Origin: a virus
Lineage: Duplodnaviria; Heunggongvirae; Uroviricota; Caudoviricetes
IMG/VR virus record: IMGVR_UViG_3300032092_002720
Span: 1-64,000 of that record
Strand: one strand, 5' to 3'
Length of the DNA: 64,000 nucleotides
Both the position numbers and the translations under genes were made by a program. Numbering within the stretch: the first letter of the stretch is position 1; each line of letters opens with the position of its first letter. Below are positions 808-56,800 of the stretch, in pieces. The notes beneath the pieces were generated by a model. It saw only the letters and a list, made by a program, of their open reading frames with translations, was not told the DNA's origin and made no database searches.

Positions 808-1371
808 ATGTTTGTACATGATAATGGAAATCTGAATGTTTTAGCCATGGAAAAGTGTGGTCACACTGCCATGTGGTGTTATTTTGATATGCCTCTCATG
901 CAAAAATATTTTGCAGATTGGTTAGAATATACATCTCCTCGAGTAGTGGTGTTAAGACACCCTATGGAACGCGTCCATTCTGCAATGCGTTTTGCCGATA
1001 AATTATTTAATAACGGCCAAAAAACCAAAGAAATAATGGAAGCTGTCAGATTTACACCCGAATTTTTTGACTACTATGATAATAATCCTTCGGAAATATC
1101 GGAGTATGTTTTTAATAGGCACTGTCGTCCATACATGCATATTCTAAAAAATAGAGATTTTAGAATTATAAAGTTCGAAGAACTACCTCAATACATTCCA
1201 ACGGTATTACCAGGTGGAATTGCAACAAATACCACTGATAGGAATATAGATCCGTTTCCTTCGAACAGATGGTTCACAAGAAAAGATATGATAAAAGAGA
1301 TTGAGATATATGAAAATCTCGTGGAAAACAGAGAAGTTATAACTATTCAAGAATGGAAAGCGCTAACATGA
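808..1371 (+). CDS. Sulfotransferase-like protein (putative)
   Basis: An internal ATG at 808 is the likelier start. KCGHTA resembles the 5'-PSB motif (PKSGTT) and RHPMERVHS the 3'-PB motif (RDPxDxxxS) of PAPS-dependent sulfotransferases. Motif-level only. Confidence 0.3.
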   Translation: MFVHDNGNLNVLAMEKCGHTAMWCYFDMPLMQKYFADWLEYTSPRVVVLRHPMERVHSAMRFADKLFNNGQKTKEIMEAVRFTPEFFDYYDNNPSEISEYVFNRHCRPYMHILKNRDFRIIKFEELPQYIPTVLPGGIATNTTDRNIDPFPSNRWFTRKDMIKEIEIYENLVENREVITIQEWKALT

Positions 1372-3416
1372 TTAAGAAAATTTTACTTTCGCCATGGTTG
1401 GCGCTTTTTACATTTGCAGTACTACTTACTTTTAAGTTACAAGATCCGTATTTGGTTGAAGCGACTCGTCTTAAATTTTATGACTATATCATGCTTGATA
1501 AAGCAAAGCAATCTGAGCAGATTGTAGTCGTTAATTTAGGGGAGAAAGCAATTGAAAAATATGGCCAGTGGCCGTTCCCGCGTGAAGTCCACGCTGAAAT
1601 TATTGGGGACATTTATGGCCGAGGGGCTGCTCTTGTTGGCAGCACTGTACTTATGCCTGAGCCTGATCGGATGGGCACTGATCGAATTCTTGCTGATACT
1701 CTAAGCAAGTATCCAGTCGTTCTTAGTCAGACTGTGTCGGCGGATTGCGGTCGACCATCCAGTCGCGATGTTCGTCGGACAGGTGTGGCTGTGGTTGGAG
1801 ACGGTCAAGCGACCGACTTTCTTCCGTCATATCCATGCGTCCTATCGAATCTAGCAATGCTTCAACAGCATGCTGCTGGTGTAGGAGTGACGTCAACTCT
1901 TCCTGAACCTGACGGTGTTGTGCGACGAGTTCCGCTTCTCGCAACCTCAGAGGGTGAATACTATCCTGCATTTGCTCTAGAAATGTTAAGAGTCGCGGCC
2001 GGAGATCCTTCGTATCAGGCAAAGATAAACATTGGTGGGGTGGAAGCATTACGAATTCCTTCTTTTGAAACTATTAAGACCGATGAATACGGTCGCGTGT
2101 TTATTAATCCGAACTATCGATTTGAGTCATACGAAATTGGCAAGGATCCTTTGCCTGTCCTGAGTGGTAAAATCGTTGTCCTTGGAGTAACTGCAGCTGG
2201 CGTAAGTAACCCTGTAGCGACTCCTTCAGGTGCGCAGTATCCCCATCAGTTGCAAGCGAGTATTCTTGAGACTCTGATAAATGGTGATTCGGTTTCGATT
2301 CCGAATTGGACACAGCTTGTAGATCTTGCTGCTCTTCTTGTTTTGGCTCTGTCATTAATCATCATCTCTCGATTAAAATACTCTATCGTCTGGATAGGTT
2401 TAATTTTAGGCGGATATCTCTATCTGCCGGTGTATTTATTTGCGAGCAAGGGAATCTTGTTAGACGTTACATTTAACGTGATCGCAATCGCAATTATTTA
2501 CATGCATATCTATACAGTGAAATTTATATCTGAATTCCTTCAGAAGCAACAAATCAAGAAACAGTTCGGCACATATCTGAGCCCAGATCTTGTTGCAAGA
2601 TTGCAAAGACAGCCAGATCTCTTGAAGTTAGGCGGAGAATCTCGCGAGCTTTCAATCATGTTCACAGACGTTCGTGGCTTTACTACAATCTCTGAACACT
2701 ACGGAGAAGATGTTCAAGGTCTCACGTCGATTATGAATCGTTACATGACGGTCATGACAAGAGCGATCCTTGAAAACAACGGTACATTAGATAAGTATAT
2801 TGGTGATGCACAGATGGCATTCTGGAATGCGCCGCTCGATAATAATAAGCATGCTTTGGATGCTGTACGAACAGCCTTCCAAATGTTAAAAGATTTGGAG
2901 ACTTTCAATGAAGAAGTTACAAAAGAAGGCATCCCAGCTTTCGGTATGGGTCTTGGTATTAACACTGCCACTGTGGTTGTTGGCAATATGGGCTCTGACC
3001 AGCGTTTTGATTATACTTGCTTGGGCGATGGGGTTAATCTGGCTGCTCGTCTCGAAGGTCAAACCAAGCCTTATGGAGTCAAACTCATCGTCGGACCACA
3101 AACGGCCGAATCGATTGGGAATGTATACCAAGTAGTTGAGCTCGACCTGATCGCCGTGAAAGGTAAGACAGAACCTGCTCAAATCTATACAGTACTCGAA
3201 TTTGCAGATCCTGCTGGAGAACTGCTGCATAAAAAGTTCTTGGACTTCTATCGTCAGGGCAAATGGGATGCAGCTATCAACATGATAAAAGATCTGAAAC
3301 GCTGTTGGGACGAAGAGCTAAATGCATACTATGATATGATGGAACAAAGAATCTACGACTTGAAAACCGATGAGCCACTCAAGTGGGACGGAATTTATAG
3401 AGCTACCAGTAAGTGA
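1353..3416 (+). CDS. CHASE2 sensor domain - transmembrane - class III adenylyl/guanylyl cyclase
   Basis: N-terminal TM segment, a ~300-aa periplasmic CHASE2-like region, then multiple TM helices (aa ~320-400). C-terminal cyclase homology domain motifs: RELSIMFTDVRGFTTISE, YIGDAQMAFWNAP, DYTCLGDGVNLAARLEG. Confidence 0.75.
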   Translation: MESANMIKKILLSPWLALFTFAVLLTFKLQDPYLVEATRLKFYDYIMLDKAKQSEQIVVVNLGEKAIEKYGQWPFPREVHAEIIGDIYGRGAALVGSTVLMPEPDRMGTDRILADTLSKYPVVLSQTVSADCGRPSSRDVRRTGVAVVGDGQATDFLPSYPCVLSNLAMLQQHAAGVGVTSTLPEPDGVVRRVPLLATSEGEYYPAFALEMLRVAAGDPSYQAKINIGGVEALRIPSFETIKTDEYGRVFINPNYRFESYEIGKDPLPVLSGKIVVLGVTAAGVSNPVATPSGAQYPHQLQASILETLINGDSVSIPNWTQLVDLAALLVLALSLIIISRLKYSIVWIGLILGGYLYLPVYLFASKGILLDVTFNVIAIAIIYMHIYTVKFISEFLQKQQIKKQFGTYLSPDLVARLQRQPDLLKLGGESRELSIMFTDVRGFTTISEHYGEDVQGLTSIMNRYMTVMTRAILENNGTLDKYIGDAQMAFWNAPLDNNKHALDAVRTAFQMLKDLETFNEEVTKEGIPAFGMGLGINTATVVVGNMGSDQRFDYTCLGDGVNLAARLEGQTKPYGVKLIVGPQTAESIGNVYQVVELDLIAVKGKTEPAQIYTVLEFADPAGELLHKKFLDFYRQGKWDAAINMIKDLKRCWDEELNAYYDMMEQRIYDLKTDEPLKWDGIYRATSK

Positions 3417-15496: not shown

Positions 15497-16294
15497 ATGA
15501 ATCGTATTGCTAAGATCGCCGTTCTCGCTGGTTTGATGGCCACGACTGCTGCATGTACTCGAATTGAAACTGGTGAAGTTGGTGTTCGTCGGACATTTAA
15601 CAAGACTATTGAAACCACTGAACTGATGCCTGGTTCTGTTAATCAGACCATCTTTGGTGATGTATTGACGTTCCCAACGAAGGACGTTCAGGTTGACGTA
15701 GCTGACTTGACTCCACTCGCTTCGGATAACTCGACAGTTGCTGACTTCGATATGGCTGTCATCTACTCGATTAATCCTGGTTCGGTTGCAGAACTCTACA
15801 TCGAGAAGAACCGTGGCTTCCACGCTGACACCGAAGAAGGTGACACTCTCCTGATGTACAACTACATTCGTCAGCTTGGTCGCAATGCTGCCTATAAGGT
15901 TGCACGTAAGTATGAGTCATTGAAGATGGCTGATAATCGTGCTGAGATGGAACAACTGATTCGTCAGGAAGTTGTAGCACAGCTCGCTTCTGAGAAGCTT
16001 GACGGTGCAATTTCAATCTCACAGGTTCTTGTTCGTCAGGTAAAGCCTGCTGCAAATATCGTAGCCTCGGCTAATGCTCTTGTTCAGGCTCAGAATGCTG
16101 AAAAGCAAAAGCTGGTAGAGGTTCGTACCGCAAAGTTGGAAGCTGAACGTATTGCTGCTCTGAACGCCAACGCAGGCGCAACGAAGTACATGGAAGCAAC
16201 TGCTCTCGTAACGATCGCCGAAGCTGTCAAGGAAGGTAAGGTTTCTACCATTATCGTTCCTTACGACTTCAAGGGTATCGTCAACGTAAAGTAA
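15497..16294 (+). CDS. SPFH/band-7 (HflK/C-like) domain lipoprotein
   Basis: Signal peptide ending in the lipobox-like TAAC. GEVGVRR and a coiled ALVQAQNAEKQKLVEVRTAKLEAERIAA stretch typical of SPFH domains. Confidence 0.55.
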   Translation: MNRIAKIAVLAGLMATTAACTRIETGEVGVRRTFNKTIETTELMPGSVNQTIFGDVLTFPTKDVQVDVADLTPLASDNSTVADFDMAVIYSINPGSVAELYIEKNRGFHADTEEGDTLLMYNYIRQLGRNAAYKVARKYESLKMADNRAEMEQLIRQEVVAQLASEKLDGAISISQVLVRQVKPAANIVASANALVQAQNAEKQKLVEVRTAKLEAERIAALNANAGATKYMEATALVTIAEAVKEGKVSTIIVPYDFKGIVNVK

Positions 16295-16948: not shown

Positions 16949-17182
16949 ATGATTGACCATACGCCAACTTATTCCGCCTTTCGTACTCCACTGGCATTGC
17001 CTGGATTGGAGTTCTACGACCACCATTTGGTCGGTCTGACATGGCCATATATAAACTGTAAAGGCAAACAGTATCACGTCACGATGCTCGATCAAGGTTG
17101 GGTGTGTGACTGTCCTGGTTTTAACTTCTATAATAAATGTAAGCACATTACACAAGTGCACGAAAAGGTGATAGCAGAATGA
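16949..17182 (+). CDS. SWIM zinc-finger protein
   Basis: CDCPGFNFYNKCKHITQVH matches CxCx(n)CxH of SWIM. Confidence 0.45.
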   Translation: MIDHTPTYSAFRTPLALPGLEFYDHHLVGLTWPYINCKGKQYHVTMLDQGWVCDCPGFNFYNKCKHITQVHEKVIAE

Positions 17183-17574
17183 TTGTTCAGAACGCAGTAA
17201 ATTGTTTGTCATGTGGAGATCTCATCGTCTCTAAGCATCGTCATGACTTTGTAAATTGCACTTGCGGTGCTGTATGGGTAGATGGCGGTCAGGACTACCT
17301 GCGTCGTGTAGGTGACTTTGAAAACGCCGTCGACTTGTCTTGGTCACTGCCAGACAAGTTATATTTTGATTGTGCTGATGCTGCTGGCCTTGCTATGGAT
17401 AGCGGTCGTAATACTAAAGGCATCGCCAATGCAGTGATGCGTACTCTTCGTGAAGCTGGTCGAGTGATCGCCGAAGGTGAACAAAGAATTCTAGCTCATA
17501 ATCCTCGTATGGATGAGATTATGGTTGAAGAAGCAGATGGAACAATTAATCGTTATAAGAAGGTTGTAGAATGA
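17179..17574 (+). CDS. hypothetical Cys-rich protein
   Basis: CLSCGD...CTCG putative zinc ribbon; ATGA overlap. Confidence 0.35.
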   Translation: MIVQNAVNCLSCGDLIVSKHRHDFVNCTCGAVWVDGGQDYLRRVGDFENAVDLSWSLPDKLYFDCADAAGLAMDSGRNTKGIANAVMRTLREAGRVIAEGEQRILAHNPRMDEIMVEEADGTINRYKKVVE

Positions 17575-18656
17575 CTTATTTTTTACGTACTGGTAATACT
17601 TACCGTGTAACTGACGAAGCTGCACTGGATCTCCATGAGTTGCTGCCTGCTGGTAACTACATCATCAAGCAAGATCAGTTTGGTAATTTGTTCCTCGAGG
17701 AAACTGATAAGTTCAAGCCGCTGAGTAAGTACTACGGCGATTGTTTGAAGCATGCTGATCGTATTCATCGTACTTTTGCCGATCGTCCTTCCAGCACTGG
17801 TGTCATGCTAACTGGCGAGAAGGGTTCTGGTAAGACTCTGCTTGCAAAGCAGCTTTCCATTCTCGGCTACGAGCTTGGTATTCCTACCATCATCATTAAT
17901 CATGACTGGACTGGCGATGCTTTCAATAAGTTCCTTGCAGACATCGATCAGCCATGCATTATCCTGTTCGACGAGTTCGAGAAGGTCTACAACCATCAGA
18001 AGCAGGAAGCTATCCTGACTCTGCTCGACGGTGTGTTTCCTTCGAAGAAGCTGTTCGTTCTGACTTGTAATGACAAGTGGCGTATCGACCAACATATGCG
18101 TAATCGGCCCGGTCGTATCTTCTACATGATTGACTTCAAGGGTCTGACGGCCGAGTTCATAGTTGAATATTGCAACGATAACCTCGAGGATAAGTCTCAT
18201 ATCGATCAGATCACGAAGATCGCTACTCTGTTTACTGAGTTCAACTTTGACATGCTGAAGGCAATGGTCGAAGACATGAACCGCTACGGTGAGACTCCAC
18301 AGGAAGTCATGCGACTCCTGAATGCCAAGCCCGAGTATGATAGTCGTGATGAGGCCAAGTTCAAGGTCGAGCTGTTTACCGAAAATGGCCAACAAGTCGA
18401 TGATAAGTTCCTGTACACTAAAATGTGGCATCGCAATCCATTGGCTAGCAACTCCATCTTTATTGAACTTAATGACGATGAAGATATCGATGGGCCTGAT
18501 GAATTCGATGGCTGTGAAGGCTACTCGTTCGACCAGTCTGAACTGATTAATATCAATGGCGAAACTGGTACGTTCGAGTATCGATCCAAGGATGGTTCTC
18601 GTCTTAAGCTGACTCGACAAAAGCAGCAAACCTTTAACTACTTTGGAGCTCTCTAA
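17571..18656 (+). CDS. AAA+ ATPase (clamp-loader-like)
   Basis: Walker A GEKGSGKT, Walker B ILFDEFE, sensor-like VLTCND and an arginine-finger-like RNRPGR. ATGA overlap. Confidence 0.6.
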   Translation: MTYFLRTGNTYRVTDEAALDLHELLPAGNYIIKQDQFGNLFLEETDKFKPLSKYYGDCLKHADRIHRTFADRPSSTGVMLTGEKGSGKTLLAKQLSILGYELGIPTIIINHDWTGDAFNKFLADIDQPCIILFDEFEKVYNHQKQEAILTLLDGVFPSKKLFVLTCNDKWRIDQHMRNRPGRIFYMIDFKGLTAEFIVEYCNDNLEDKSHIDQITKIATLFTEFNFDMLKAMVEDMNRYGETPQEVMRLLNAKPEYDSRDEAKFKVELFTENGQQVDDKFLYTKMWHRNPLASNSIFIELNDDEDIDGPDEFDGCEGYSFDQSELININGETGTFEYRSKDGSRLKLTRQKQQTFNYFGAL

Positions 18657-19765
18657 TGAAGGAAGCATGCATCGTCGGTTTTGGAATGATCGATGCGTTA
18701 GGCGATAATCCCATCGATTGTTGGGAGAATATGCTTAACGATCGAGACTTCCATAAACCTATTGAACCCCATGTACATGAAGGTCACACTCTTAAGGTAA
18801 AAACTGCCTTCTATCCTGATGTCGAGATCGACCAAGAATTGCAACCTCGTACTGTAGCATATGGTATGCATGCAGTCGAGCAAGCTTTGCATATGGCTGG
18901 TCTACCACACTCTTCAAGCGTAGGCGTCATCTTCTCGACTTTGACAGGTGGAAATTCCTTTAAAGCAAAGCTAGACGCCGTAGGCAGAAAGCAAAAGCCT
19001 AAGCAGATCCTTCGCTCTACGAAGGATTATCTCTGCAGCCAAATCTCAATCAAGTATGGATATACTGGTATCAATACCATGGTATATTCTGCTTGTGCTA
19101 CAGGTTTGGTAAGCATCGAATATGCTATGCGAATGCTCGATGAGTATGACTATGTGATCGTAGGCGGTTCTGATGCTGGCGTAAATCATATGGATCTCTA
19201 CTTCTTCTCGATTATCAAAGCAATCGGTTCGAAGTCGATGCCATTCGATAAGAATCGCGACGGCTTTATTATGGGCGAAGGCGCAGGTTGCATCATCCTT
19301 CAGTCGAGAGAAAAGGCCGAAGCGATGGGTTCGAAGGTCTATGCTCGTATCACTGGAGTTTCGAATGCTTCAGATGCACACGATCCGACTGCACCTTCTG
19401 GAGCCGGAGCTCGTCTTTGCTTGGAGAAGCTGGATCTCGAAGGAGTCGACTCAGTCAACTCACATGGAACCAGCACTCCACTCGGAGATGTGGTAGAGTA
19501 TGACGTGGTTCGCGAGTTTACTGATGCACCGATCTATTCCAATAAAGGAAAAATTGGACATACTTTCGCCGCGGCAGGTGTACTTGAAACGATTTATAGT
19601 GTACTGTCTATTCAGAACGGCGTGATTCCTCATACCGCTGGTTGTCAAGACACTGATATGGATGTGGTGACAGAGAACATCGAGACTGACGTCAAGAAGG
19701 TTCTTGTTAATTCATTTGGATTTGGTGGCAAGTGTTGTTCTATTATTGTTGAAAAGGAGTATTGA
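18656..19765 (+). CDS. Beta-ketoacyl-(ACP) synthase (KAS I/II-like, short form)
   Basis: Active-site Cys in YSACATG; His in NSHGTSTPLGD; His/Lys in NKGKIGHTFAAAG; C-terminal NSFGFGG. At 369 aa it is shorter than FabF. Confidence 0.8.
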   Translation: MKEACIVGFGMIDALGDNPIDCWENMLNDRDFHKPIEPHVHEGHTLKVKTAFYPDVEIDQELQPRTVAYGMHAVEQALHMAGLPHSSSVGVIFSTLTGGNSFKAKLDAVGRKQKPKQILRSTKDYLCSQISIKYGYTGINTMVYSACATGLVSIEYAMRMLDEYDYVIVGGSDAGVNHMDLYFFSIIKAIGSKSMPFDKNRDGFIMGEGAGCIILQSREKAEAMGSKVYARITGVSNASDAHDPTAPSGAGARLCLEKLDLEGVDSVNSHGTSTPLGDVVEYDVVREFTDAPIYSNKGKIGHTFAAAGVLETIYSVLSIQNGVIPHTAGCQDTDMDVVTENIETDVKKVLVNSFGFGGKCCSIIVEKEY

Positions 19766-20010
19766 TTATGTCTAAATTTACTGTAGAACTTGATTGGGAA
19801 ACTGTCGATCATATCGTTGTTGAACAGCTGCGTAATACGTGGGAAACTTTGAAGGACGATCTTGGTAAGGGCAGAAACATTTTTGTCTGGGGCGATATCG
19901 AAGCAGATGATGCAGAAATCCAAAAGCACATCGATGCACTCGCTCTTATGCTGAAGTGGTATTCCACTCCTTCCGAACTGGTAAAAATGGGACTGAAAGA
20001 CGATGCCTAA
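19762..20010 (+). CDS. hypothetical protein
   Basis: ATGA-coupled ORF. Confidence 0.3.
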   Translation: MIMSKFTVELDWETVDHIVVEQLRNTWETLKDDLGKGRNIFVWGDIEADDAEIQKHIDALALMLKWYSTPSELVKMGLKDDA

Positions 20011-20278
20011 GTATCTCGTAGAAGCTATCAGCATGTTTCGGATGCGTTACGTCGTTGAGGCGAATAATGCATCCGATGCTAAAGATGAAGTCACTATGAA
20101 CGAAGGCAATCTTCACGAGTTCTCTCAGTTGCATCTTGACGAGACAATCAGTTATGCTCGTGAGATCGATCAGCAAGAGTATCTTCGTCTATTCGATGAG
20201 GATAATGACTATCTCAAAGAGTGGGATGAAGATCTTAAACTTAGTTGGATTAATAAGGTGAAATATGGAACAGAATAA
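20003..20278 (+). CDS. hypothetical acidic protein
   Basis: Coupled ORF; no DSL phosphopantetheine site. Confidence 0.3.
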   Translation: MPKYLVEAISMFRMRYVVEANNASDAKDEVTMNEGNLHEFSQLHLDETISYAREIDQQEYLRLFDEDNDYLKEWDEDLKLSWINKVKYGTE

Positions 20279-20528
20279 AGTATATACAATTAAGCTCATG
20301 TCGGGCGAAGAACTCATTGCTCGTGTCAAGCAAGAAGGTGGTGTCACTGAACTGTTGAAGCCTCGTACAGTTGGTATGGGACCTCAAGGTTTTGCTATGA
20401 TGCCATGGATGATGTCAGCTCCTGATAACAACGTCGTAATCTCTGACACTGTCATTGTCGGTGCAACCGAGACCAGTCAAAACGTAGCCACTCAGTATCT
20501 GAAACAAGTAACAGGGATACAAGTCTGA
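20265..20528 (+). CDS. hypothetical protein
   Basis: Coupled ORF. Confidence 0.3.
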   Translation: MEQNKVYTIKLMSGEELIARVKQEGGVTELLKPRTVGMGPQGFAMMPWMMSAPDNNVVISDTVIVGATETSQNVATQYLKQVTGIQV

Positions 20529-20944
20529 TGTTAGAATGTTTGATTATGGGCGACTCGATCGCCGTTGGAACGAAGATGTTTGCTCCGAAAGAATGTGTAT
20601 CATATTCGAAGGGCGGATATAACACGTGGCAATGGAACAAGAAGTGGGGTAAGACTCCACTCGAAGCCAAGACAATCGTAATCAGCCTCGGAACAAACGA
20701 CCATAGCGGTGTGAATACGAAAAAAGAGTTGACAAAAATTAGAACTCGTGTTAAGGTAGGCAATGTAGTATGGATTATGCCTCCTTGTAACAAAGGCTTT
20801 TGCAAACCCGGAATCAACGCCGTAGTCAAGAGCATCGCTGTAAGTTATGGAGATCGTATCATTGCTACATCGTATGTTCAACCTGATGATATCCATCCAT
20901 CGTGGCGTGGATATAAAGATCTCGTAAAGAAAGCTGGACTGTGA
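20528..20944 (+). CDS. SGNH/GDSL-like hydrolase (putative)
   Basis: N-terminal GDSIAVG (GDSx), LGTNDH (block III-like), C-terminal DDIHPS (DxxH). Confidence 0.45.
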   Translation: MLECLIMGDSIAVGTKMFAPKECVSYSKGGYNTWQWNKKWGKTPLEAKTIVISLGTNDHSGVNTKKELTKIRTRVKVGNVVWIMPPCNKGFCKPGINAVVKSIAVSYGDRIIATSYVQPDDIHPSWRGYKDLVKKAGL

Positions 20945-21050
20945 CACTTTTCGTTTTTATAGTGTTCATTATTGGAGTTACAGTGTATGGTATCCTTACC
21001 AATAGGAATACTCCTGAGGAACGCGATGAAATGTTAAACGATAAGGAAAT

Positions 21051-21614
21051 GTGGCCGTGAATTTATTCATTCTTGACAGTGATCCTGTCAAAGCAGCACA
21101 ATTACAGTGTGACAAGCATGTCGTGAAGATGATCGTCGAGAGTGCTCAAATGCTCTCGACTGCACATCGTATGCTCGACGGTGTAGAGACACGCGTGCCT
21201 TCAAAGTCTGGTAAGACGATGTCGAAGGCATGGACTCTACCGGACGAACGCGAAGATACGTTCTATCGTGCAGTGCATATGCACCATCCTTGCACGATTT
21301 GGACCGCACAAAGTAATAACAACTACAACTGGCACTATGTGCACTTTGTAGCCCTTTGTGACGAGTATACGTATCGCTATGGCAAGGTTCATAGCACAGA
21401 TACTTTGCTTCGAGAAGCTCTGAAGAACCCGCCTCGTAATATTCCTGTCGGTTACAAGACTCCTCAGCCGTTGGCAATGAAGGCCAATCCTGAGTGCATC
21501 GACTACAATGATATCGTAGGCTCATATCGCAAGTTCTATCAGACGAAGCAAGCTCGATTCAAGATGGCATGGACTAAACGTCCAATTCCAGAATGGTTTG
21601 CTGTAGCAGCATAA
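21051..21614 (+). CDS. Pyrimidine-dimer DNA glycosylase (DenV-like), putative
   Basis: N-terminus NLFILDSDPVKAAQLQCDKHVVKMIVESAQMLS is collinear with T4 endonuclease V ([24 protein letters not shown]). GTG start with an AAGGA SD. Confidence 0.35.
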   Translation: MAVNLFILDSDPVKAAQLQCDKHVVKMIVESAQMLSTAHRMLDGVETRVPSKSGKTMSKAWTLPDEREDTFYRAVHMHHPCTIWTAQSNNNYNWHYVHFVALCDEYTYRYGKVHSTDTLLREALKNPPRNIPVGYKTPQPLAMKANPECIDYNDIVGSYRKFYQTKQARFKMAWTKRPIPEWFAVAA

Positions 21615-28014: not shown

Positions 28015-28304
28015 TCGGATTTAAGGAATTCATCACTGAGCGTGGCGAAGATTCGAAAGGCCACTTCATTGCCACCGAGAAGGGTGCAGGTATGACAGCG
28101 AAGGGTGTAAAAGCCTATCGTGCCAAGAATCCTGGATCCAAGCTTCAGACTGCTGTGACTGGAAAAGTAAAACCCGGATCCAAAGATGCAGGTAGACGTA
28201 AGTCTTTCTGTGCTCGTATGAGCGGCGTCAAAGGTCCGATGAAAGATGAAAAAGGTAGACCGACTCGCAAGGCGATGTCGCTTCGTAGATGGAAGTGCAA
28301 TTGA
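28011..28304 (+). CDS. small basic protein
   Basis: ATGA overlap with the upstream gene; K/R-rich. Confidence 0.35.
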   Translation: MIGFKEFITERGEDSKGHFIATEKGAGMTAKGVKAYRAKNPGSKLQTAVTGKVKPGSKDAGRRKSFCARMSGVKGPMKDEKGRPTRKAMSLRRWKCN

Positions 28305-28738
28305 TGGAAGAGATTACAAACCCGCTGAAGGTAGCCTTCGCTGACACTTATGCTTTCTATGTGAAGGCACAGAACTATCACTGGAATGTCGAAGGTCCAT
28401 TCTTTGCGATGTACCACGAGTTCTTTGGTAAGATCTACGAAGAAGTAGGTGGAGCTATCGACACGTTTGCCGAAGAGATTCGTGCACAGAATGCATATGC
28501 TCCTGCAGCATTCGGTCGTTTTAAAGAATTGACAACTATTCAAGACGAAGTTCTTATCATTAAGCCTGAACAGATGGTTGCCAACTTGTTTTCAGACAAT
28601 GCCAAAGTACTGGCTTCTGTACAAGCAGCAAGAGACGTAGCAGATAAGTACAATGAAAACGGTCTCGTTAACTTCCTCGAAGAGAGACTCGATCAGCACA
28701 ACAAACATGCATGGATGCTCAAAGCATCGATGAAATAA
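28289..28738 (+). CDS. Dps / ferritin-like DNA-protection protein
   Basis: YAFYVKAQNYHWNVEGPFFAMYHEFFGKIYEEV and EEIRAQNAY match the Dps ferroxidase-site helices. An alternative start at 28304 overlaps the upstream stop (TGATG). Confidence 0.7.
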   Translation: MEVQLMEEITNPLKVAFADTYAFYVKAQNYHWNVEGPFFAMYHEFFGKIYEEVGGAIDTFAEEIRAQNAYAPAAFGRFKELTTIQDEVLIIKPEQMVANLFSDNAKVLASVQAARDVADKYNENGLVNFLEERLDQHNKHAWMLKASMK

Positions 28739-44692: not shown

Positions 44693-45682
44693 ATGAATAA
44701 TCAAGATAAGATTGAACTGAACGAACTGAACAAGGAATCGAATGGTGGAACAGAACTTACCACTCGAAATCTCTTCCACCGACTTTCAAGTGATGAACTC
44801 GATGGTATCCAAATTATCACTGCTCGCGTCCGCGACCTTGATCCTAACCGAATTAAGATCTATCATCTACACGACCTTGCCGGCGATCCGGAGGCTTCAC
44901 ACCTTCAAGATCCAGCTTCTCGAGCTCGCTTCCAAAAGTTGGTCTTCAGCTCTAACTGGCAGTATCAACAGTATCGTGACTATCTTGGAGTTCCATATAG
45001 CAATCATTCAACAGTTATCGAAACAGGCATCGAGCCTATTCCACTCGTTGACAAACCAAAGGATAAGATACGTCTCATTTATACGTCCACGCCTCATCGT
45101 GGATTGGAGATTCTGGTTCCTGTTTTTATCGCTCTTGCCGATAAATATCCAAACATCGAGCTAGACGTCTTCTCTTCATTCGGCATCTATGGTCCAGGTT
45201 GGGAAGGTCGTGATCAGGCATACGAACCGCTGTTCGAAGCATGTCGTAATCATCCACAAATTAACTATCATGGCTGGGCAGATCAGGAGACAGTACGTGC
45301 CGCATATCAAAAAGCTCACATCTTTGCATATCCTTGTATCTGGCCGGAAACTTCGTGCAGGTCACTTATTGAAGCTATGTCGGCTGGTTGTCTGGCGGTT
45401 CATCCTAACTTCTCTGCTTTGGCTGACACGTCGGGCGGGTTGACTGTCCAGTATGACGGCGATCACGAGAATCCAAATCTGCATGCTAATATCTTTGCAC
45501 ACACTCTGATGTATGCTATCGAGAACATGCAACAAAATGACATGACTAACATGTTGTCATTTGTCAAAGCCTACGCAGATACTCGTTTCGGTTGGGATTC
45601 TGTAATTCCCAAGTGGAAGGGGCTCATTGCTTCGTTAAAGGAACAAAACCGTGATATTGGCCAAAGCACCACTCAGAGTTAG
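44693..45682 (+). CDS. Glycosyltransferase (GT-B, GT4-like)
   Basis: C-terminal ETSCRSLIEAMSAGCLAV (Ex7E-type donor-binding motif). Confidence 0.6.
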   Translation: MNNQDKIELNELNKESNGGTELTTRNLFHRLSSDELDGIQIITARVRDLDPNRIKIYHLHDLAGDPEASHLQDPASRARFQKLVFSSNWQYQQYRDYLGVPYSNHSTVIETGIEPIPLVDKPKDKIRLIYTSTPHRGLEILVPVFIALADKYPNIELDVFSSFGIYGPGWEGRDQAYEPLFEACRNHPQINYHGWADQETVRAAYQKAHIFAYPCIWPETSCRSLIEAMSAGCLAVHPNFSALADTSGGLTVQYDGDHENPNLHANIFAHTLMYAIENMQQNDMTNMLSFVKAYADTRFGWDSVIPKWKGLIASLKEQNRDIGQSTTQS

Positions 45683-46592
45683 TTTTTTCGGCGGGGGTAG
45701 TGATATCCCCGCCCACTTTGAAAAATGGGGTGGAGCAACCATCTCAACTGCCATTGACAAGTATGTCTATGTAGCAGTCATGCACACACCACACGACCAC
45801 ATCAAAGTTTCTTATTCGAAACAAGAGCTCGTTACAGACGTAGACGATATCCAGAATGAAATCGTTCGTAATGCACTCAAGTTCTTCGGTATCAAATCCA
45901 ACATCGAGATCACATCATTCGCAGACATTCCCACGATCGGTAACGGTCTTGGTGGATCGTCTGCTTTTACTTGTGCTCTGATTAAAGCTTTGTCAGCATA
46001 TCTTGGTTATGAATACGTAAATCCTTATCTTATTGCGAAGACTGCTTGCAATATCGAAATTGACATGTGCGGTTGGAAGATCGGCATGCAAGATCAGTTT
46101 GCGTCTACATTCGGCGGTATGAACTACATCGAGTATTCGAATAGTGGTCGTGTGAATGTAAAACGTTTGGATACAATGGCAATCGAGAACTATATGATCT
46201 TGATTCCTACAAACATAGAGCATCATGCAGCTAAGATCCTTGACAATATCAACTTTGAATCGAAAGAATTTACAATTCGTGAGCTTGCACGTATAGCAGA
46301 GATGCAAAGTACCCAACTTGTAAATCCATTTGAGTACGGTCGATTGCTCGATTCTGCATGGATTCTCAAGAAGCAGATGAGTGCTGAGATCTCCAGTAGT
46401 GATATAGATATTATGTACGACAAGTGCAAATCTGCTGGTGCCTATGGGGCTAAATTGCTTGGAGCCGGAGGCGGAGGATACATGCTAGCAATCACAGATT
46501 CGAAAGAAATGATTCGCCGAGAATTTTCAGACAGAACATGCCTCGATGTAGGTATCGCACATGAAGGAGCAAGAGTTGTCTATCGAGACTGA
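45651..46592 (+). CDS. GHMP sugar kinase (D-glycero-D-manno-heptose 7-phosphate kinase HddA-like)
   Basis: N-terminal PLRVSFFGGGSD; GHMP motif PTIGNGLGGSSAF; C-terminal GAKLLGAGGGGYML. Confidence 0.65.
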   Translation: MILAKAPLRVSFFGGGSDIPAHFEKWGGATISTAIDKYVYVAVMHTPHDHIKVSYSKQELVTDVDDIQNEIVRNALKFFGIKSNIEITSFADIPTIGNGLGGSSAFTCALIKALSAYLGYEYVNPYLIAKTACNIEIDMCGWKIGMQDQFASTFGGMNYIEYSNSGRVNVKRLDTMAIENYMILIPTNIEHHAAKILDNINFESKEFTIRELARIAEMQSTQLVNPFEYGRLLDSAWILKKQMSAEISSSDIDIMYDKCKSAGAYGAKLLGAGGGGYMLAITDSKEMIRREFSDRTCLDVGIAHEGARVVYRD

Positions 46593-47157
46593 CATTATAT
46601 TTGATCATATGGGCCTAATTAATATTGGGTTTGCAAGTATCGATCATGAAGAATTTAAAAAAGCAGCCGAACTAATTTGGCTGACAAGCATTTCAAATCA
46701 TCGTAACAACATCTATACTATCGGTAACGGTGCATCTGCATCCATCGCTCAGCATTGGGCGTGCGACTATACCAAAGGTTGTAAGAAAGGTGGATTACGC
46801 CCAAGAGTTATTTCTTTGGCGGCAAATATTCCACTGATGACAGCCGTGGCGAATGACATCTCCTATGACGACGTTTACTCGTTCCAGCTCGATGCACTCG
46901 GACAAGAAGGCGACGTACTCGTGGCCATCTCTTCGAGTGGTAATTCTCCAAACGTTGTCAAGGCAATTGAGACTGCTAAGTCATTGAAAATGAAGACTAT
47001 TGCCTTGACAGGTTTTTCACCAGATAATAAGTGCGCTCAACTCGCAGATATCTCTCTACATGTCGATATCCAAGAATACGAGGCAGCAGAAGACGTTCAT
47101 CAAGCTATTATGCATATGATTGCTAAATATATCAGAAACAGAGGTAAGGTTACATAA
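46561..47157 (+). CDS. gmhA: Sedoheptulose-7-phosphate isomerase GmhA (SIS domain)
   Basis: GNGASASIAQHW, EGDVLVAISSSGNSPNVVKAI and HQAIMHMI are collinear with E. coli GmhA. Confidence 0.8.
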   Translation: MKEQELSIETDIIFDHMGLINIGFASIDHEEFKKAAELIWLTSISNHRNNIYTIGNGASASIAQHWACDYTKGCKKGGLRPRVISLAANIPLMTAVANDISYDDVYSFQLDALGQEGDVLVAISSSGNSPNVVKAIETAKSLKMKTIALTGFSPDNKCAQLADISLHVDIQEYEAAEDVHQAIMHMIAKYIRNRGKVT

Positions 47158-47912
47158 TGTCAAATCAACCAGTATCAATTCATCAGATCGCAGCCCAGTT
47201 CGGCACAGATAGTGGTAACTATGAAGTACTCACTGACGCTGCCATTCGATCGAAGGGTGTAGAAGGTGCAGCAGTCGAGATTGGTGTCCGTCTTGGTGGT
47301 GGTCTACAAAAGATCATCGACGGTCTCGTAGGAAGTGGTCAAACTCCTGAGAAGCCAGTCTTTGGTATCGATCCTTATGGCAACATCGAGTACTATCGCG
47401 ATGAGATCTTCAAGGAAGGTCGTTGCGACTATACGAATGAGATGCGCGACATTTGCATGATCAACTTGTATCTGTACTGCCGTCAGAAGAACGTCAACTT
47501 CTACATGTTTAATCTCGAAGATACAGAATTCTTCAATCGTTATGCAGACGGTGTTCCTGTCTATGCAGACTATAAGCAGCTTGTCAATAAGTACAGCGTA
47601 GTCCACTTCGACGGTCCTCATACACTCGAAGCTCTCGATGCTGAGATTGCATTCTTCCTCGAGCGGTCAGATCCTGGCGCTGTCTTCGTCTTCGACGACG
47701 TAGAGATGTACGAGCATGATGCTGTGCACAATCAGTTGCTAGAGTATGGAATGGAAATTGCCATAAGAACTCCTCGTAAGTGGTCATACGTCAAGAAGGA
47801 ACATGTCGACAAGAAGTGGGAACCAGTCGTTGGGACTCCTGGTTGGGAACCAAATGCAGATCAATACACGCCAAAGGGTGGTCCAAGTTTTAATTATAAA
47901 ATCGACCTGTGA
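47157..47912 (+). CDS. Class I SAM-dependent methyltransferase-like (CmcI/Methyltransf_24-like), putative sugar O-methyltransferase
   Basis: AVEIGVRLGGG (motif I-like), VHFDGPH, VFVFDDV. TAATG overlap with gmhA. Confidence 0.4.
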   Translation: MSNQPVSIHQIAAQFGTDSGNYEVLTDAAIRSKGVEGAAVEIGVRLGGGLQKIIDGLVGSGQTPEKPVFGIDPYGNIEYYRDEIFKEGRCDYTNEMRDICMINLYLYCRQKNVNFYMFNLEDTEFFNRYADGVPVYADYKQLVNKYSVVHFDGPHTLEALDAEIAFFLERSDPGAVFVFDDVEMYEHDAVHNQLLEYGMEIAIRTPRKWSYVKKEHVDKKWEPVVGTPGWEPNADQYTPKGGPSFNYKIDL

Positions 47913-55887: not shown

Positions 55888-56325
55888 ATGAAGAATTTTA
55901 TTGCGCTAGCACTTGTGATGCTGGCAACTCCAGCTATCGCGCAGAAGACGCCTACAGGTGTGACGTATGATACTACCATTGTCCGTGCGATTGATGGTGA
56001 TACGATTGTCATTACCGCACCATACCTACCAGCTCCTCTTAAGCCTGAGCTCGGTGTTCGAATCTTTGGTGTCGATACACCTGAAAAGAGCTTTCGTGCC
56101 AAGTGTGAGAGCGAGAAGAAGCGTGGCGAACAATCCAGTGAATTCACCAATTTGGTAATCAAATCTACAAAGAAGCATCAGGTTGTTTTGTACGATTGGG
56201 ATAAGTTCGGTGGTCGTGTTCTTGGAGATATTCTCCTTGACGGCATGAGCCTTCGAGATCTTCTTATCAAGAACGGTTTTGCGCGTGCATATTTTGGTGA
56301 TGCAAAGCAATCTTGGTGCAATTAA
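55888..56325 (+). CDS. Secreted staphylococcal-nuclease (SNase/thermonuclease) homologue
   Basis: Signal peptide; RAIDGDTIVI and RIFGVDTPE match the SNase Ca-binding/active-site motifs. Confidence 0.6.
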   Translation: MKNFIALALVMLATPAIAQKTPTGVTYDTTIVRAIDGDTIVITAPYLPAPLKPELGVRIFGVDTPEKSFRAKCESEKKRGEQSSEFTNLVIKSTKKHQVVLYDWDKFGGRVLGDILLDGMSLRDLLIKNGFARAYFGDAKQSWCN

Positions 56326-56357
56326 GCATGTACAATTAAAGCCCGTTGGGGTATAAA
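56319..56357 (+). promoter_or_regulatory. Phage promoter motif copy driving the tmRNA region
   Basis: AAGCATGTACA (56327-34), N17, TATAAA at 56352-57; no ORF downstream for ~650 nt. Confidence 0.55.
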
Positions 56358-56405
56358 TAGAATATCAGTTGTTGACAATCAACGATAAAAGTGCCGAGGA
56401 CGCGG

Positions 56406-56800
56406 GGGCAGTACCCGCCGCCTCCACCATCTATACTGGCACCAAGAACGCCACGGGGTTACCTAGGGACTGCAGCCCGAAAAGCATCTGGTGAGAAGTG
56501 CAGGTAGCAGCCAGTATAGATGATGGGGGCGAACTAGGATCGACTGGGACAGAATAAGGCGGTTTGAGACTGATTGCTTGGCAAAGTGCCACTAAACATA
56601 AATGCTAACGATAACGATAGCTTTGCAGATATCCGCCTAGCGGCATGATCTACACGGGTATGGCTCCACCTTGGAACAGAACGGGCCACTTGCTACCAGT
56701 TGAATCGCTGGTGCTACGAGTCACCAGAAAAAACGCTGGTGTAAGTATAAATAAAATATCACGACGGAGGTTGAAATCCTCCATTGACTCTTGCAAAACT
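56406..56800 (+). ncRNA. ssrA: tmRNA (ssrA), apparently circularly permuted two-piece form
   Basis: 56406-56439 (GGACGCGGG-GGCAGUA-CCCGC-CGCCUCC-ACCA) is nearly identical in arrangement to the E. coli tmRNA 3' end. 56524-56549 (GGGGGCGAACUAGGAUCGACUGGGAC) matches the tmRNA 5' end, and GGGGGCG pairs with CGCCUCC including a G3:U wobble. A tag reading frame at 56603-56644 encodes ANDNDSFADIRLAA followed by UGA. The whole region is ORF-free. The 3' boundary is uncertain. Confidence 0.7.

What the first reader, a model, noticed from the sequence alone, without database searches (positions are those of the whole stretch)
17571..20944. Stand-alone beta-ketoacyl synthase in an operon with an AAA+ ATPase and an SGNH hydrolase
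ORF 18656-19765 has the full KAS I/II catalytic triad (YSACATG; NSHGTSTPLGD; GKIGHTFAAAG) but is ~40 aa shorter than FabF. No ACP with a DSL motif is encoded nearby. It is ATGA/TAATG-coupled upstream to a clamp-loader-like AAA+ ATPase and downstream, via three small ORFs, to a GDS(x) SGNH hydrolase. A phage-encoded condensing enzyme could boost or redirect host fatty-acid synthesis, or make a small acyl/polyketide product. The neighbourhood does not resemble a known fab operon.
Basis: partly seen in the sequence, partly recalled or inferred. Interest (0 to 1): 0.7.

Follow-up and report, generated by a model that had tools for sequence, protein, structure and literature searches.

The report
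Phage-only fatty-acid condensing enzyme gene
A T4-like aquatic phage carries a complete, strongly conserved fatty-acid chain-extending enzyme from a lineage found only in phages; it probably runs on the host's own carrier protein to retune lipid synthesis during infection and is not part of an operon with its neighbours.

Summary
ORF 18656-19765 is a real, catalytically complete KAS I/II-type beta-ketoacyl synthase. It has both Pfam KS domains, a confident model matching FabF/FabB, and every catalytic residue invariant in 132 relatives. dN/dS is 0.01-0.12.

It is neither FabF nor FabB. It belongs to a monophyletic clade found here only on phage-like contigs, about 40 aa shorter than FabF. The clade has a diagnostic GFGG-[K/R]-C motif that replaces the gate-coupling Asn404 of FabF. 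Its pocket residue is Thr/Ser where FabF has Ile108.

No ACP, FabD, FabG or FabH lies in the window, its flanks, or within 10 kb of the KS in 42 related loci.

The proposed operon is not supported. The AAA+ gene is absent from 28 of 29 close relatives, and in L018 it lies on the other side of the KS. The three small ORFs and the SGNH hydrolase are backbone genes. They persist without any KS in the syntenic relative L127.

The KS is a solitary accessory gene in a hypervariable slot. Most likely it uses host acyl-ACP and malonyl-ACP to boost or retune host fatty-acid synthesis. "fabF" in freshwater pelagimyophages was noted in one sentence in 2020; the clade itself appears undescribed. Verdict: new variant of a known kind, moderate interest.

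The parts
18656..19765 (+). Phage-clade KAS I/II-type beta-ketoacyl synthase (369 aa). Catalytic residues are Cys147, His270, Lys297 and His302; the gate is Phe356 in GFGG; the family motif is NSFGFGG-K359-C360.
   Evidence: Pfam PF00109 99.4 bits plus PF02801 71 bits. AF2 pLDDT 93.3 and Foldseek TM 0.92 to FabF. Catalytic residues invariant in 133/133 sequences. dN/dS 0.013-0.12. Monophyletic clade, 59/60 bootstraps.
17571..18656 (+). AAA+ ATPase (phrog_2376). This is an accessory gene inserted upstream of the KS and is NOT a conserved partner of it.
   Evidence: Pfam AAA 42 bits and phrog_2376 301 bits. Absent from 28 of 29 close relatives, including those with a 99%-identical KS. In L018 it lies downstream of the KS. 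Best cultured-phage match is Microbacterium phage Pumpernickel at 52%.
17179..17574 (+). DUF7695 backbone gene. It marks the left edge of the hypervariable slot that holds the AAA+ and KS genes.
   Evidence: Pfam DUF7695 78 bits. Conserved in all close relatives and in the KS-less L127.
19762..20528 (+). Three small backbone ORFs (82, 91 and 87 aa; the last matches phrog_527). They form the right edge of the slot and are not ACPs.
   Evidence: Present in the same order in KS-less L127 at 66%, 63% and 97% identity. No ACP signal. phrog_527 36.5 bits.
20528..20944 (+). Minimal SGNH/GDSL hydrolase (138 aa). It is a backbone gene that occurs independently of the KS.
   Evidence: Blocks I, II, III and V invariant. 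Pfam 28.1 bits, below the 32.9-bit cut-off. AF2 pLDDT 88.7; best PDB match is E. coli TesA at TM 0.63-0.65. 876 homologues found. Occurs without a KS in L125, L126 and L127.

Best explanation
ORF 18656-19765 is an auxiliary metabolic gene. It encodes an active elongating beta-ketoacyl-ACP synthase of a phage-restricted KAS I/II clade, carried as a solitary accessory gene in a hypervariable slot of a T4-like aquatic myophage. An alphaproteobacterial-type tmRNA in the window hints at an alphaproteobacterial host.

Shown:
- It has the KAS I/II fold.
- Every residue needed for the ping-pong decarboxylative Claisen condensation is present. These are the acyl acceptor Cys147, the malonyl decarboxylation residues His270, His302 and Lys297, the Asp278/Glu281 network, the GFGG gate with Phe356, and the loop-2 Asp240.
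- It is under strong purifying selection.
- It lies in phage contexts in every lineage examined.
- Its GC content tracks that of each carrier phage.

Inferred:
- The phage supplies no ACP, FabD, FabG, FabZ or PPTase in the 64-kb window or its flanks. The core ACP-docking residues are conserved (FabF K128, P131, T270, P272). The enzyme therefore most likely docks host holo-ACP and condenses host acyl-ACP with malonyl-ACP.
- This would add condensing capacity at the step that sets flux and chain length in type II fatty-acid synthesis. It would sustain or retune membrane-lipid production in the infected cell.
- Distant clade members sit next to a fatty-acid desaturase or 2OG-oxygenase-like genes. 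That fits an acyl-chain remodelling theme.

Speculative:
- The clade-wide substitutions may alter gating, substrate selectivity or regulation relative to the host enzyme. They are N404C, T403K/R and M337K at the gate, and I108T/S in the acyl pocket.
For: - Domains and fold.
- Catalytic and gating residues invariant in 133 sequences: mapped onto FabF roles taken from PMC7138838.
- dN/dS 0.013-0.12.
- Phage context in eight lineages, including T4 gp32, baseplate and tail genes nearby.
- Presence/absence among near-identical backbones (L127 vs window).
- KS GC tracks carrier GC over 31-46%.
- Clade separation: the family HMM gives 339 bits or more for members and 282 or less for the nearest cellular FabF. 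Against E. coli FabF, members score 193 or less and cellular FabF 407 or more. NJ monophyly 59/60.
- No ACP or Fab partners despite a working positive control.
- ACP region 2 conserved (K128 to K/R in 95%, P131 in 88%, T270 in 95%).
- Literature precedent for lipid AMGs in aquatic phages, and a one-line mention of fabF plus desaturase in freshwater pelagimyophages.
Against: - No biochemical or expression data exist.
- Only about 64 kb plus roughly 14 kb of flanks was inspected. Contigs carrying this exact KS reach 129 kb, so a phage ACP elsewhere cannot be excluded. Related T4-like phages do carry solitary ACP genes (L188, L179, L172).
- ACP-docking region 1 (FabF K65/R68/K69) is largely deleted. 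R206 is basic in only 48% of members, so the carrier partner or docking mode may differ.
- Replacing the otherwise universal Asn404 could change or impair gating in unknown ways.
- The benefit to the phage is conjecture.
Confidence: 0.62

Rival explanations
1. The KS belongs to a dedicated phage pathway that makes a specialised lipid or small acyl/polyketide-like product. Its partners would be encoded elsewhere in the genome: a phage ACP, desaturase, 2OG oxygenases, sulfotransferases or the SGNH esterase acting as a thioesterase.
For: - Distant clade members abut 2OG-FeII_Oxy_3-like genes (L040, L031; weak in L033). Others lie two genes from a fatty-acid desaturase, with APS kinase and sulfotransferase nearby (L035, L042).
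- Solitary ACP genes exist in related T4-like phages.
- The best structural match of the SGNH ORF is the thioesterase TesA.
- The gate and pocket residues differ from all cellular FabF sequences examined.
Against: - No neighbour is conserved across the clade.
- No ACP, AT, KR, DH or CLF lies within 10 kb in 42 loci or in the window.
- ACP-bearing viral loci lack a clade KS.
- The SGNH gene occurs without the KS and the KS without the SGNH gene.
- The TesA match is weak (TM 0.63, 12-17% identity), and TesA is simply the smallest SGNH fold in the PDB.
Confidence: 0.17
2. The KS acts as a takeover tool rather than a booster. Overproduced condensing enzyme would titrate host ACP, FabD or malonyl-ACP and so throttle or redirect host fatty-acid synthesis and malonyl-CoA. 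This is analogous to the reported toxicity of FabF overproduction in E. coli, which I cite from memory (Subrahmanyam and Cronan 1998) and did not check here.
For: It is a solitary enzyme with no other pathway components. It sits in a long block of co-directional genes next to the replication module. Its docking surface is remodelled.
Against: All catalytic, gating and oxyanion residues are invariant across sequences as little as 32% identical to each other. That indicates selection on full catalysis rather than on binding alone. Association with desaturase genes in relatives suggests productive lipid remodelling.
Confidence: 0.08
3. One reading: AAA+ ATPase, KS, the small ORFs and the SGNH hydrolase form one functional operon and act together.
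For: All genes are on the same strand with overlapping stop and start codons, and no terminator lies between them.
Against: - The AAA+ gene is absent from 28 of 29 close relatives and sits on the other side of the KS in L018.
- The KS-less L127 keeps the small ORFs and the SGNH gene in the same order.
- None of these neighbours accompanies the KS in the 42-67% identical lineages.
- Overlapping junctions are a property of all ten genes in the block.
Confidence: 0.03
4. The KS is host-derived contamination, a recent capture of host fabF, or a decaying pseudogene.
For: Many 'phage fabF' reports are host operon fragments. Examples are the Rhodobacteraceae fabG-acpP-fabF 'prophage' genes and the roughly 30% identical hits in GenBank phage records.
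Against: - The KS lies inside a T4-like genome between replication genes and the rest of the phage gene block.
- It is only 30-34% identical to the best cellular matches in the genome scan.
- dN/dS is about 0.1 or lower.
- Its GC is ameliorated to each carrier phage.
- It forms a monophyletic clade.
Confidence: 0.01

Closest known systems
FabF (KAS II, beta-ketoacyl-ACP synthase II; TIGR03150)
   Same: - Same thiolase-type fold (TM 0.92 to P. aeruginosa, B. subtilis and E. coli FabF).
- Same Cys-His-His triad, Lys335, Asp311/Glu314, GFGG gate with Phe400, Asp265 and Asn396.
- Best-scoring NCBIfam model.
   Different: - Only 25-37% identical.
- Scores 227 bits against the 494-bit equivalog cut-off.
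- About 40 aa shorter, through eight or nine short loop deletions that include ACP-docking region 1.
- Asn404 to Cys, Thr403 to Lys/Arg, Met337 to Lys, Ile108 to Thr/Ser, His268 to Asp/Asn.
- Never next to acpP, fabG or fabD.
- Forms a separate clade.
FabB (KAS I; NF005935)
   Same: Same fold (TM about 0.90) and catalytic residues. It shares the 2-residue shorter loop 2 of FabB, and it has a small residue at the pocket position where FabB has Gly107 and FabF has Ile108.
   Different: Scores 162 bits against the 630-bit cut-off. It branches outside the FabF+FabB group. No fabA partner was seen. The gate-flanking Thr-Asn is replaced by Lys-Cys.
Phage lipid AMGs: cyanophage and sea-ice phage fatty-acid desaturases (PMC5776448, PMC7300359), and the 'fabF' noted in freshwater pelagimyophages (PMC7029224)
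   Same: All are single host-type lipid-metabolism genes carried by aquatic, mostly T4-like, phages with no other pathway genes. Some clade members (L035, L042) sit two genes from a desaturase, matching the 'fabF + stearoyl-CoA desaturase' remark for Fonsibacter phages.
   Different: The desaturases act on finished acyl chains, whereas this enzyme builds them. The earlier mention is a single sentence. It gave no analysis of the clade, its diagnostic motif, its catalytic status or its accessory nature.
Ketosynthases of type I and type II polyketide synthases
   Same: Homologous KS domains (29-34% identity to modular PKS KS domains).
   Different: PKS KS domains score 143 bits or less on the family HMM and serve as the outgroup. 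No CLF, ACP, AT or tailoring genes are nearby.
'Prophage' fabG-acpP-fabF clusters reported in Rhodobacteraceae (PMC8224337)
   Same: They are annotated as phage-borne fabF.
   Different: Those clusters keep the canonical host operon order with acpP and fabG. The KS here is solitary, divergent and embedded in a lytic T4-like genome.

Membership tests
KAS I/II elongating condensing enzymes (Pfam PF00109 + PF02801) | Both KS domains score above the Pfam gathering score | tested here: met
   99.4 and 71.0 bits against a 20.8-bit cut-off.
KAS I/II elongating condensing enzymes (Pfam PF00109 + PF02801) | Cys-His-His catalytic triad plus the conserved Lys and Asp/Glu network | tested here: met
   C147, H270, H302, K297, D278 and E281 are invariant in 133/133 sequences.
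KAS I/II elongating condensing enzymes (Pfam PF00109 + PF02801) | GFGG gating loop with the Phe gatekeeper, and the loop-2 Asp | tested here: met
   F356 in 133/133, G358 in 133/133 and D240 in 132/133 sequences. Roles taken from PMC7138838.
KAS I/II elongating condensing enzymes (Pfam PF00109 + PF02801) | Thiolase-type alpha-beta-alpha-beta-alpha fold | tested here: met
   AF2 pLDDT 93.3; Foldseek TM 0.89-0.92 to FabF/FabB structures.
KAS I/II elongating condensing enzymes (Pfam PF00109 + PF02801) | Acyl-ACP and malonyl-ACP dependent condensation activity | not testable with these tools
   Requires an enzyme assay. The only indirect support is conservation of ACP region 2 residues.
FabF (KAS II) equivalog TIGR03150 | Score at or above the curated equivalog cut-off | tested here: not met
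   227.4 bits against 493.75. Against E. coli FabF, members score 193 bits or less while cellular FabF scores 407 or more.
FabF (KAS II) equivalog TIGR03150 | Conserved Asn404 flanking the GFGG gate, and Ile108 in the acyl pocket | tested here: not met
   Position 404 is Cys in 128/133 members and Asn in 74/74 cellular FabF. Position 108 is Thr or Ser in 109/133 members and Ile in 70/74 cellular FabF.
FabF (KAS II) equivalog TIGR03150 | Genomic setting in a fab cluster, typically acpP-fabF | tested here: not met
   No AcpP, FabD, FabG or FabH within 10 kb in 42 phage loci. All nine cellular loci examined have such a cluster.
FabB (KAS I) equivalog NF005935 | Score at or above the curated cut-off and grouping with FabB | tested here: not met
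   161.9 bits against 630. The tree places the clade outside the FabF+FabB group.
Polyketide synthase KS (type I/II) | Association with a dedicated ACP, CLF or AT and tailoring genes, and grouping with PKS KS domains | tested here: not met
   No partner genes. PKS KS domains score 143 bits or less on the family HMM and form the outgroup.
Phage auxiliary metabolic gene (AMG) | Encoded inside a bona fide phage genome and flanked by phage genes | tested here: met
   T4-like PolB, UvsX, helicase, gp32, gp59, RNase H and baseplate genes lie in the window and its flanks. 32 IMG/VR viral loci carry it.
Phage auxiliary metabolic gene (AMG) | Homologue of a host metabolic enzyme, dispensable for the phage core, and variably present among relatives | tested here: met
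   It is a KAS homologue. It is absent from the syntenic relative L127, whose PolB is 96% identical.
Phage auxiliary metabolic gene (AMG) | Expressed during infection and altering host metabolism | not testable with these tools
   Needs transcriptomics or lipidomics of infected cells.
SGNH/GDSL hydrolase (ORF 20528-20944) | Conserved blocks I (GDS), II (G), III (GxND) and V (DxxH) | tested here: met
   G8-D9-S10, G29/G30, G55/N57/D58 and D120/H123 are invariant in 23 homologues.
SGNH/GDSL hydrolase (ORF 20528-20944) | Pfam score above the gathering cut-off, and an SGNH fold | tested here: inconclusive
   28.1 bits, below 32.9. Homologues carry a precomputed PF13472 hit. Fold TM is 0.63-0.65 to E. 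coli TesA.
Clamp-loader (RFC/gp44-type) AAA+ (ORF 17571-18656) | Score at or above the RFC or clamp-loader family cut-offs | tested here: not met
   RFC large-subunit equivalog scores 23.9 bits against 280. Clamp-loader PHROGs score only about 32 bits, against 301 bits for phrog_2376, 'ATPase'.

The most novel reading that the evidence does not exclude
The phage clade is a functionally distinct third type of stand-alone elongating ketosynthase. Its rewired gate (Asn404 to Cys, Thr403 and Met337 to Lys) and opened pocket (Ile108 to Thr/Ser) would give it a substrate range or regulation unlike host FabF or FabB. Possibilities include accepting unusual primers or carriers, escaping host feedback or KS-targeting inhibitors, or redox control through the invariant Cys360. 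Phages would then impose a lipid programme the host cannot run itself, possibly together with phage desaturases or oxygenases.
Probability: 0.2. Interest if true: 0.7.

Novelty: new variant of a known kind. Interest (0 to 1): 0.5.

Why it matters
Condensing enzymes set the flux and chain-length distribution of bacterial fatty-acid synthesis. A diversified, phage-only lineage of them has been kept under strong purifying selection in marine and freshwater T4-like phages. That implies control of host acyl-chain synthesis is a recurrent phage strategy alongside the known desaturase AMGs.

The clade naturally replaces Asn404, a residue recent structural work singles out as coupling the two gating loops of FabF and FabB. 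It therefore offers a ready-made natural experiment for the KS gating model. It may also provide compact (about 370 aa) KS variants for engineering.

The result also corrects a tempting but wrong operon inference.

Tried and rejected
- Operon with the AAA+ ATPase. Rejected by synteny: the gene is absent in L001 and L002 and relocated in L018.
- KS plus SGNH as a synthase/thioesterase pair. The SGNH gene is an abundant backbone gene found without the KS (L125-L127) and the KS is found without it. The TesA structural match is weak.
- The small downstream ORFs as cryptic ACPs. They give no signal with phmmer or with an ACP HMM that has a good positive control, and they are present in KS-less L127.
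- An ACP at the position where related phages carry one, upstream of nrdA. The window has none there.
- Cultured-phage relatives. There is no megablast match. tblastn finds only hits of 36% identity or less, which look like bacterial contamination.
- Cellular members of the clade. Those hits are housekeeping fabF at 30-34% identity.
- Defence-system membership. PADLOC gives nothing for the KS and only a 22-bit mad8 hit for the AAA+ protein.
- Promoter and terminator scan. Promoter-like sites are not above background (17 vs 11.9 +/- 3.7), and there is no + strand terminator between 17.9 and 22.6 kb. Transcription units therefore could not be defined.
- The tree is NJ with Kimura distances and limited cellular sampling, so the sister-group placement is provisional.

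Full report
**Observation**

ORF 18656-19765 (369 aa) matches Pfam ketoacyl-synt (99.4 bits, E 3e-28) and Ketoacyl-synt_C (71 bits). It contains the quoted motifs at residues 144-150, 268-278 and 298-308. The junctions are ATGA (DUF7695/AAA+) and TAATG (AAA+/KS). However, ten consecutive + strand genes from 16949 to 21614 overlap by 1-14 nt, so tight packing is a property of the whole block.

The upstream ORF is a generic AAA+ ATPase. Pfam AAA scores 42 bits and phrog_2376 scores 301 bits. Clamp-loader and RFC models score far below their cut-offs. The 138-aa downstream ORF is a minimal SGNH hydrolase. All four catalytic blocks are invariant in 23 homologues, although its Pfam score of 28.1 bits is under the 32.9-bit cut-off.

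**What the genome is**

The window is a T4-like myophage with no close cultured relative. There is no megablast match in 50,697 phage records. Its PolB is about 50% identical to those of Synechococcus myophages. The window encodes UvsX, a gp41-type helicase, RNase H, PhoH, gp32 and gp59, with T4 baseplate genes just beyond its right end. It also carries a permuted alphaproteobacterial-type tmRNA, which hints at the host.

**The enzyme**

Against solved structures the protein aligns end to end with FabF and FabB. An AlphaFold model built on 38 family members is confident (pLDDT 93.3, pTM 0.94). It superposes on FabF at TM 0.92 and on FabB at about 0.90.

I aligned 133 family sequences whose representatives average 41.5% pairwise identity (minimum 32%). 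Every catalytic residue is invariant: Cys147, His270, His302, Lys297, Asp278, Glu281, Thr272/274 and the gatekeeper Phe356. Asp240, the equivalent of FabF Asp265, is conserved in 132 of 133. Pairwise dN/dS against nine close relatives is 0.013-0.12. This is a functional condensing enzyme, not a KS0.

**It is not FabF or FabB**

It scores 227 bits on the FabF equivalog (cut-off 494) and 162 bits on the FabB equivalog (cut-off 630). A family HMM gives members 339 bits or more, the nearest cellular FabFs 282 or less, and PKS KS domains 143 or less. Against E. coli FabF the order reverses: members 193 or less, cellular FabFs 407 or more.

An NJ tree rooted on PKS KS domains recovers the family as monophyletic in 59 of 60 bootstraps. 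It sits on a long stem beside FabF+FabB. Cellular sampling was limited, so the sister relation is provisional.

The roughly 40 missing residues are eight or nine short loop deletions.

Clade-specific substitutions map to residues highlighted by Mindrebo et al. 2020 (PMC7138838). In FabF, Asn404 flanks the GFGG gate and hydrogen-bonds Asp265 to couple gating loops 1 and 2. The changes are:
- Position 404 is Cys in 128 of 133 members and Asn in 74 of 74 cellular FabFs.
- Thr403 becomes Lys or Arg in 99% of members.
- Met337 becomes Lys in 98% of members.
- The pocket residue Ile108 becomes Thr or Ser.

ACP-docking region 2 and the loop-2 contact are kept: K128 is K/R in 95%, P131 is kept in 88%, T270 in 95% and P272 in 98%. 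Region 1 (K65/R68/K69) is largely deleted, and R206 is basic in only 48%.

**Distribution**

The big protein database gives a continuous series of relatives from 95% down to about 42% identity, many on contigs of 70-260 kb. 32 loci are in IMG/VR. An exhaustive search of 50%-identity representatives shows roughly 22 single-domain clusters of this type.

Every context I inspected is phage-like. Neighbours include tail-fibre-like genes and QueC/radical-SAM genes, T4 gp32 and baseplate genes, or dense small ORFs. The KS GC content follows that of each carrier phage from 31% to 46%.

Those I checked are housekeeping fabF in fabD-fabG-acpP-fabF operons. GenBank phage records hold only hits of 36% identity or less, which look like contamination. 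BFVD has just two distant viral KAS-like proteins. On this evidence the clade is phage-restricted and old.

**The operon claim**

A synteny matrix over 42 loci shows the AAA+ gene in only one of 29 close relatives, L018. There it lies downstream of the KS. L001 and L002, whose KS is 99% identical, have two unrelated small ORFs in its place.

The SGNH hydrolase belongs to an abundant family of its own, with 876 homologues. It occurs without a KS in L125 and L126.

Contig L127 is decisive. Its PolB is 96% identical, UvsX 93% and helicase 89%. It keeps the order DUF7695, small ORFs, 87-aa ORF (97%), SGNH (78%), 187-aa ORF (91%), DUF6267. It has neither the KS nor the AAA+ gene.

None of the window's neighbours accompanies the KS in the 42-67% identical lineages. 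The KS therefore sits alone in a hypervariable slot between backbone genes.

**Partners**

E. coli AcpP, FabD, FabG, FabH and PlsX probes, plus an ACP HMM, find nothing in the window, in about 14 kb of extra flanks, or within 10 kb of the KS in 42 loci. The same ACP HMM recovers ACP in 77 of 80 cellular fab loci.

Related T4-like phages (L188, L179, L172) do carry a solitary canonical 71-aa ACP upstream of nrdA. The window has none at that position, and those ACP loci lack a clade KS.

Two associations recur in distant members:
- A 2OG-Fe(II)-oxygenase-like gene directly downstream (L040, L031; weak in L033).
- A fatty-acid desaturase two genes downstream (L035, L042).

**Mechanism**

Shown: the protein is a complete KAS I/II catalytic machine under purifying selection in phage genomes.

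Inferred: it docks host holo-ACP through the conserved region 2 and loop-2 surface. It accepts an acyl chain on Cys147, decarboxylates malonyl-ACP with His270, His302 and Lys297, and releases a beta-ketoacyl-ACP. That adds condensing capacity to host type II fatty-acid synthesis during infection.

Why this helps the phage is conjecture. Candidates are sustained membrane synthesis, or chain-length and unsaturation tuning of the kind proposed for phage desaturases.

Speculative: the altered gate and pocket give a different substrate range or regulation.

**Known and new**

Zaragoza-Solas et al. 2020 (PMC7029224) list fabF and a stearoyl-CoA desaturase among genes unique to freshwater pelagimyophages, in one sentence. 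A lake virome preprint lists fabF and fabG as AMGs. The Rhodobacteraceae 'prophage' fabG-acpP-fabF clusters keep the host operon order and are a different matter.

I found no description of the following: the phage-restricted clade, its GFGG-K-C signature and Asn404 replacement, its consistently solitary state, or its presence/absence behaviour.

I rate it a new variant of a known kind, with moderate interest (0.5).

Noticed in passing
window 56325-56690 (+): Phage-encoded permuted (two-piece) tmRNA of the alphaproteobacterial type. Rfam tmRNA_permuted scores 100.3 bits (GA 47) and alpha_tmRNA 87.3 bits (GA 50). The ARAGORN tag peptide is ANDNDSFADIRLAA. This suggests an alphaproteobacterial host.
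   Followed up: partly
window 1353-3416 (+): A 687-aa protein with a CHASE2 sensor domain (129 bits) and a class III adenylate/guanylate cyclase domain (64 bits). The cyclase part also matches PADLOC PycC (Pycsar cyclase) at 85.6 bits. A phage-encoded sensor nucleotidyl cyclase is unusual.
   Followed up: no
window 17571-18656 (+); L018 9039-10130: The AAA+ ATPase (phrog_2376) behaves like a mobile accessory gene. It is present in only 2 of 30 closely related loci, at different positions relative to the KS. Its best cultured match is Microbacterium phage Pumpernickel at 52% identity.
   Followed up: partly
L188 6176-6394; L179 2379-2594; L172 2552-2767: Related T4-like phages (RNR 51-65% identical to the window) carry a solitary canonical 71-aa acyl carrier protein with an LGADSLD motif, about 2 kb upstream of nrdA. 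No other fab genes are nearby. This is a second, independent single-gene fatty-acid-synthesis addition in this phage group.
   Followed up: partly
L035 11119-12823; L042 11133-12873; L040 11113-11769; L031 11140-11784: In distant KS-clade members the KS is directly followed by other acyl-chain-type genes. One arrangement is a 65-68 aa ORF, a 265-269 aa cupin-like ORF and a fatty-acid desaturase, with APS kinase and sulfotransferase nearby. The other is a 2OG-FeII_Oxy_3-like protein. These may be small lipid-remodelling modules.
   Followed up: partly
window 20265-20528 (+): This 87-aa ORF (phrog_527/471) is far more conserved (90-99% aa) than its neighbours (54-77%) across relatives. It is kept at 97% identity in KS-less L127. 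Its function is unknown.
   Followed up: no
window 20528-20944 (+): The 138-aa mini-SGNH hydrolase has four invariant cysteines (C4, C23, C87, C92) and 876 database homologues, most at over 70% identity. Its best PDB fold match is E. coli thioesterase I/lysophospholipase L1 (TesA), followed by the OatA esterase domain. Its substrate is unknown.
   Followed up: partly
window 44693-47912 (+): A cluster of a group-1 glycosyltransferase, a GHMP kinase, a SIS-domain isomerase and a methyltransferase. It resembles a heptose or sugar-nucleotide pathway and may be a cell-envelope-related auxiliary module.
   Followed up: no
window 15497-16294 (+); 28289-28738 (+): The phage encodes an SPFH/Band-7 membrane-scaffold-type protein with a lipoprotein-like N-terminus (50 bits) and a ferritin-like protein (76 bits).
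   Followed up: no
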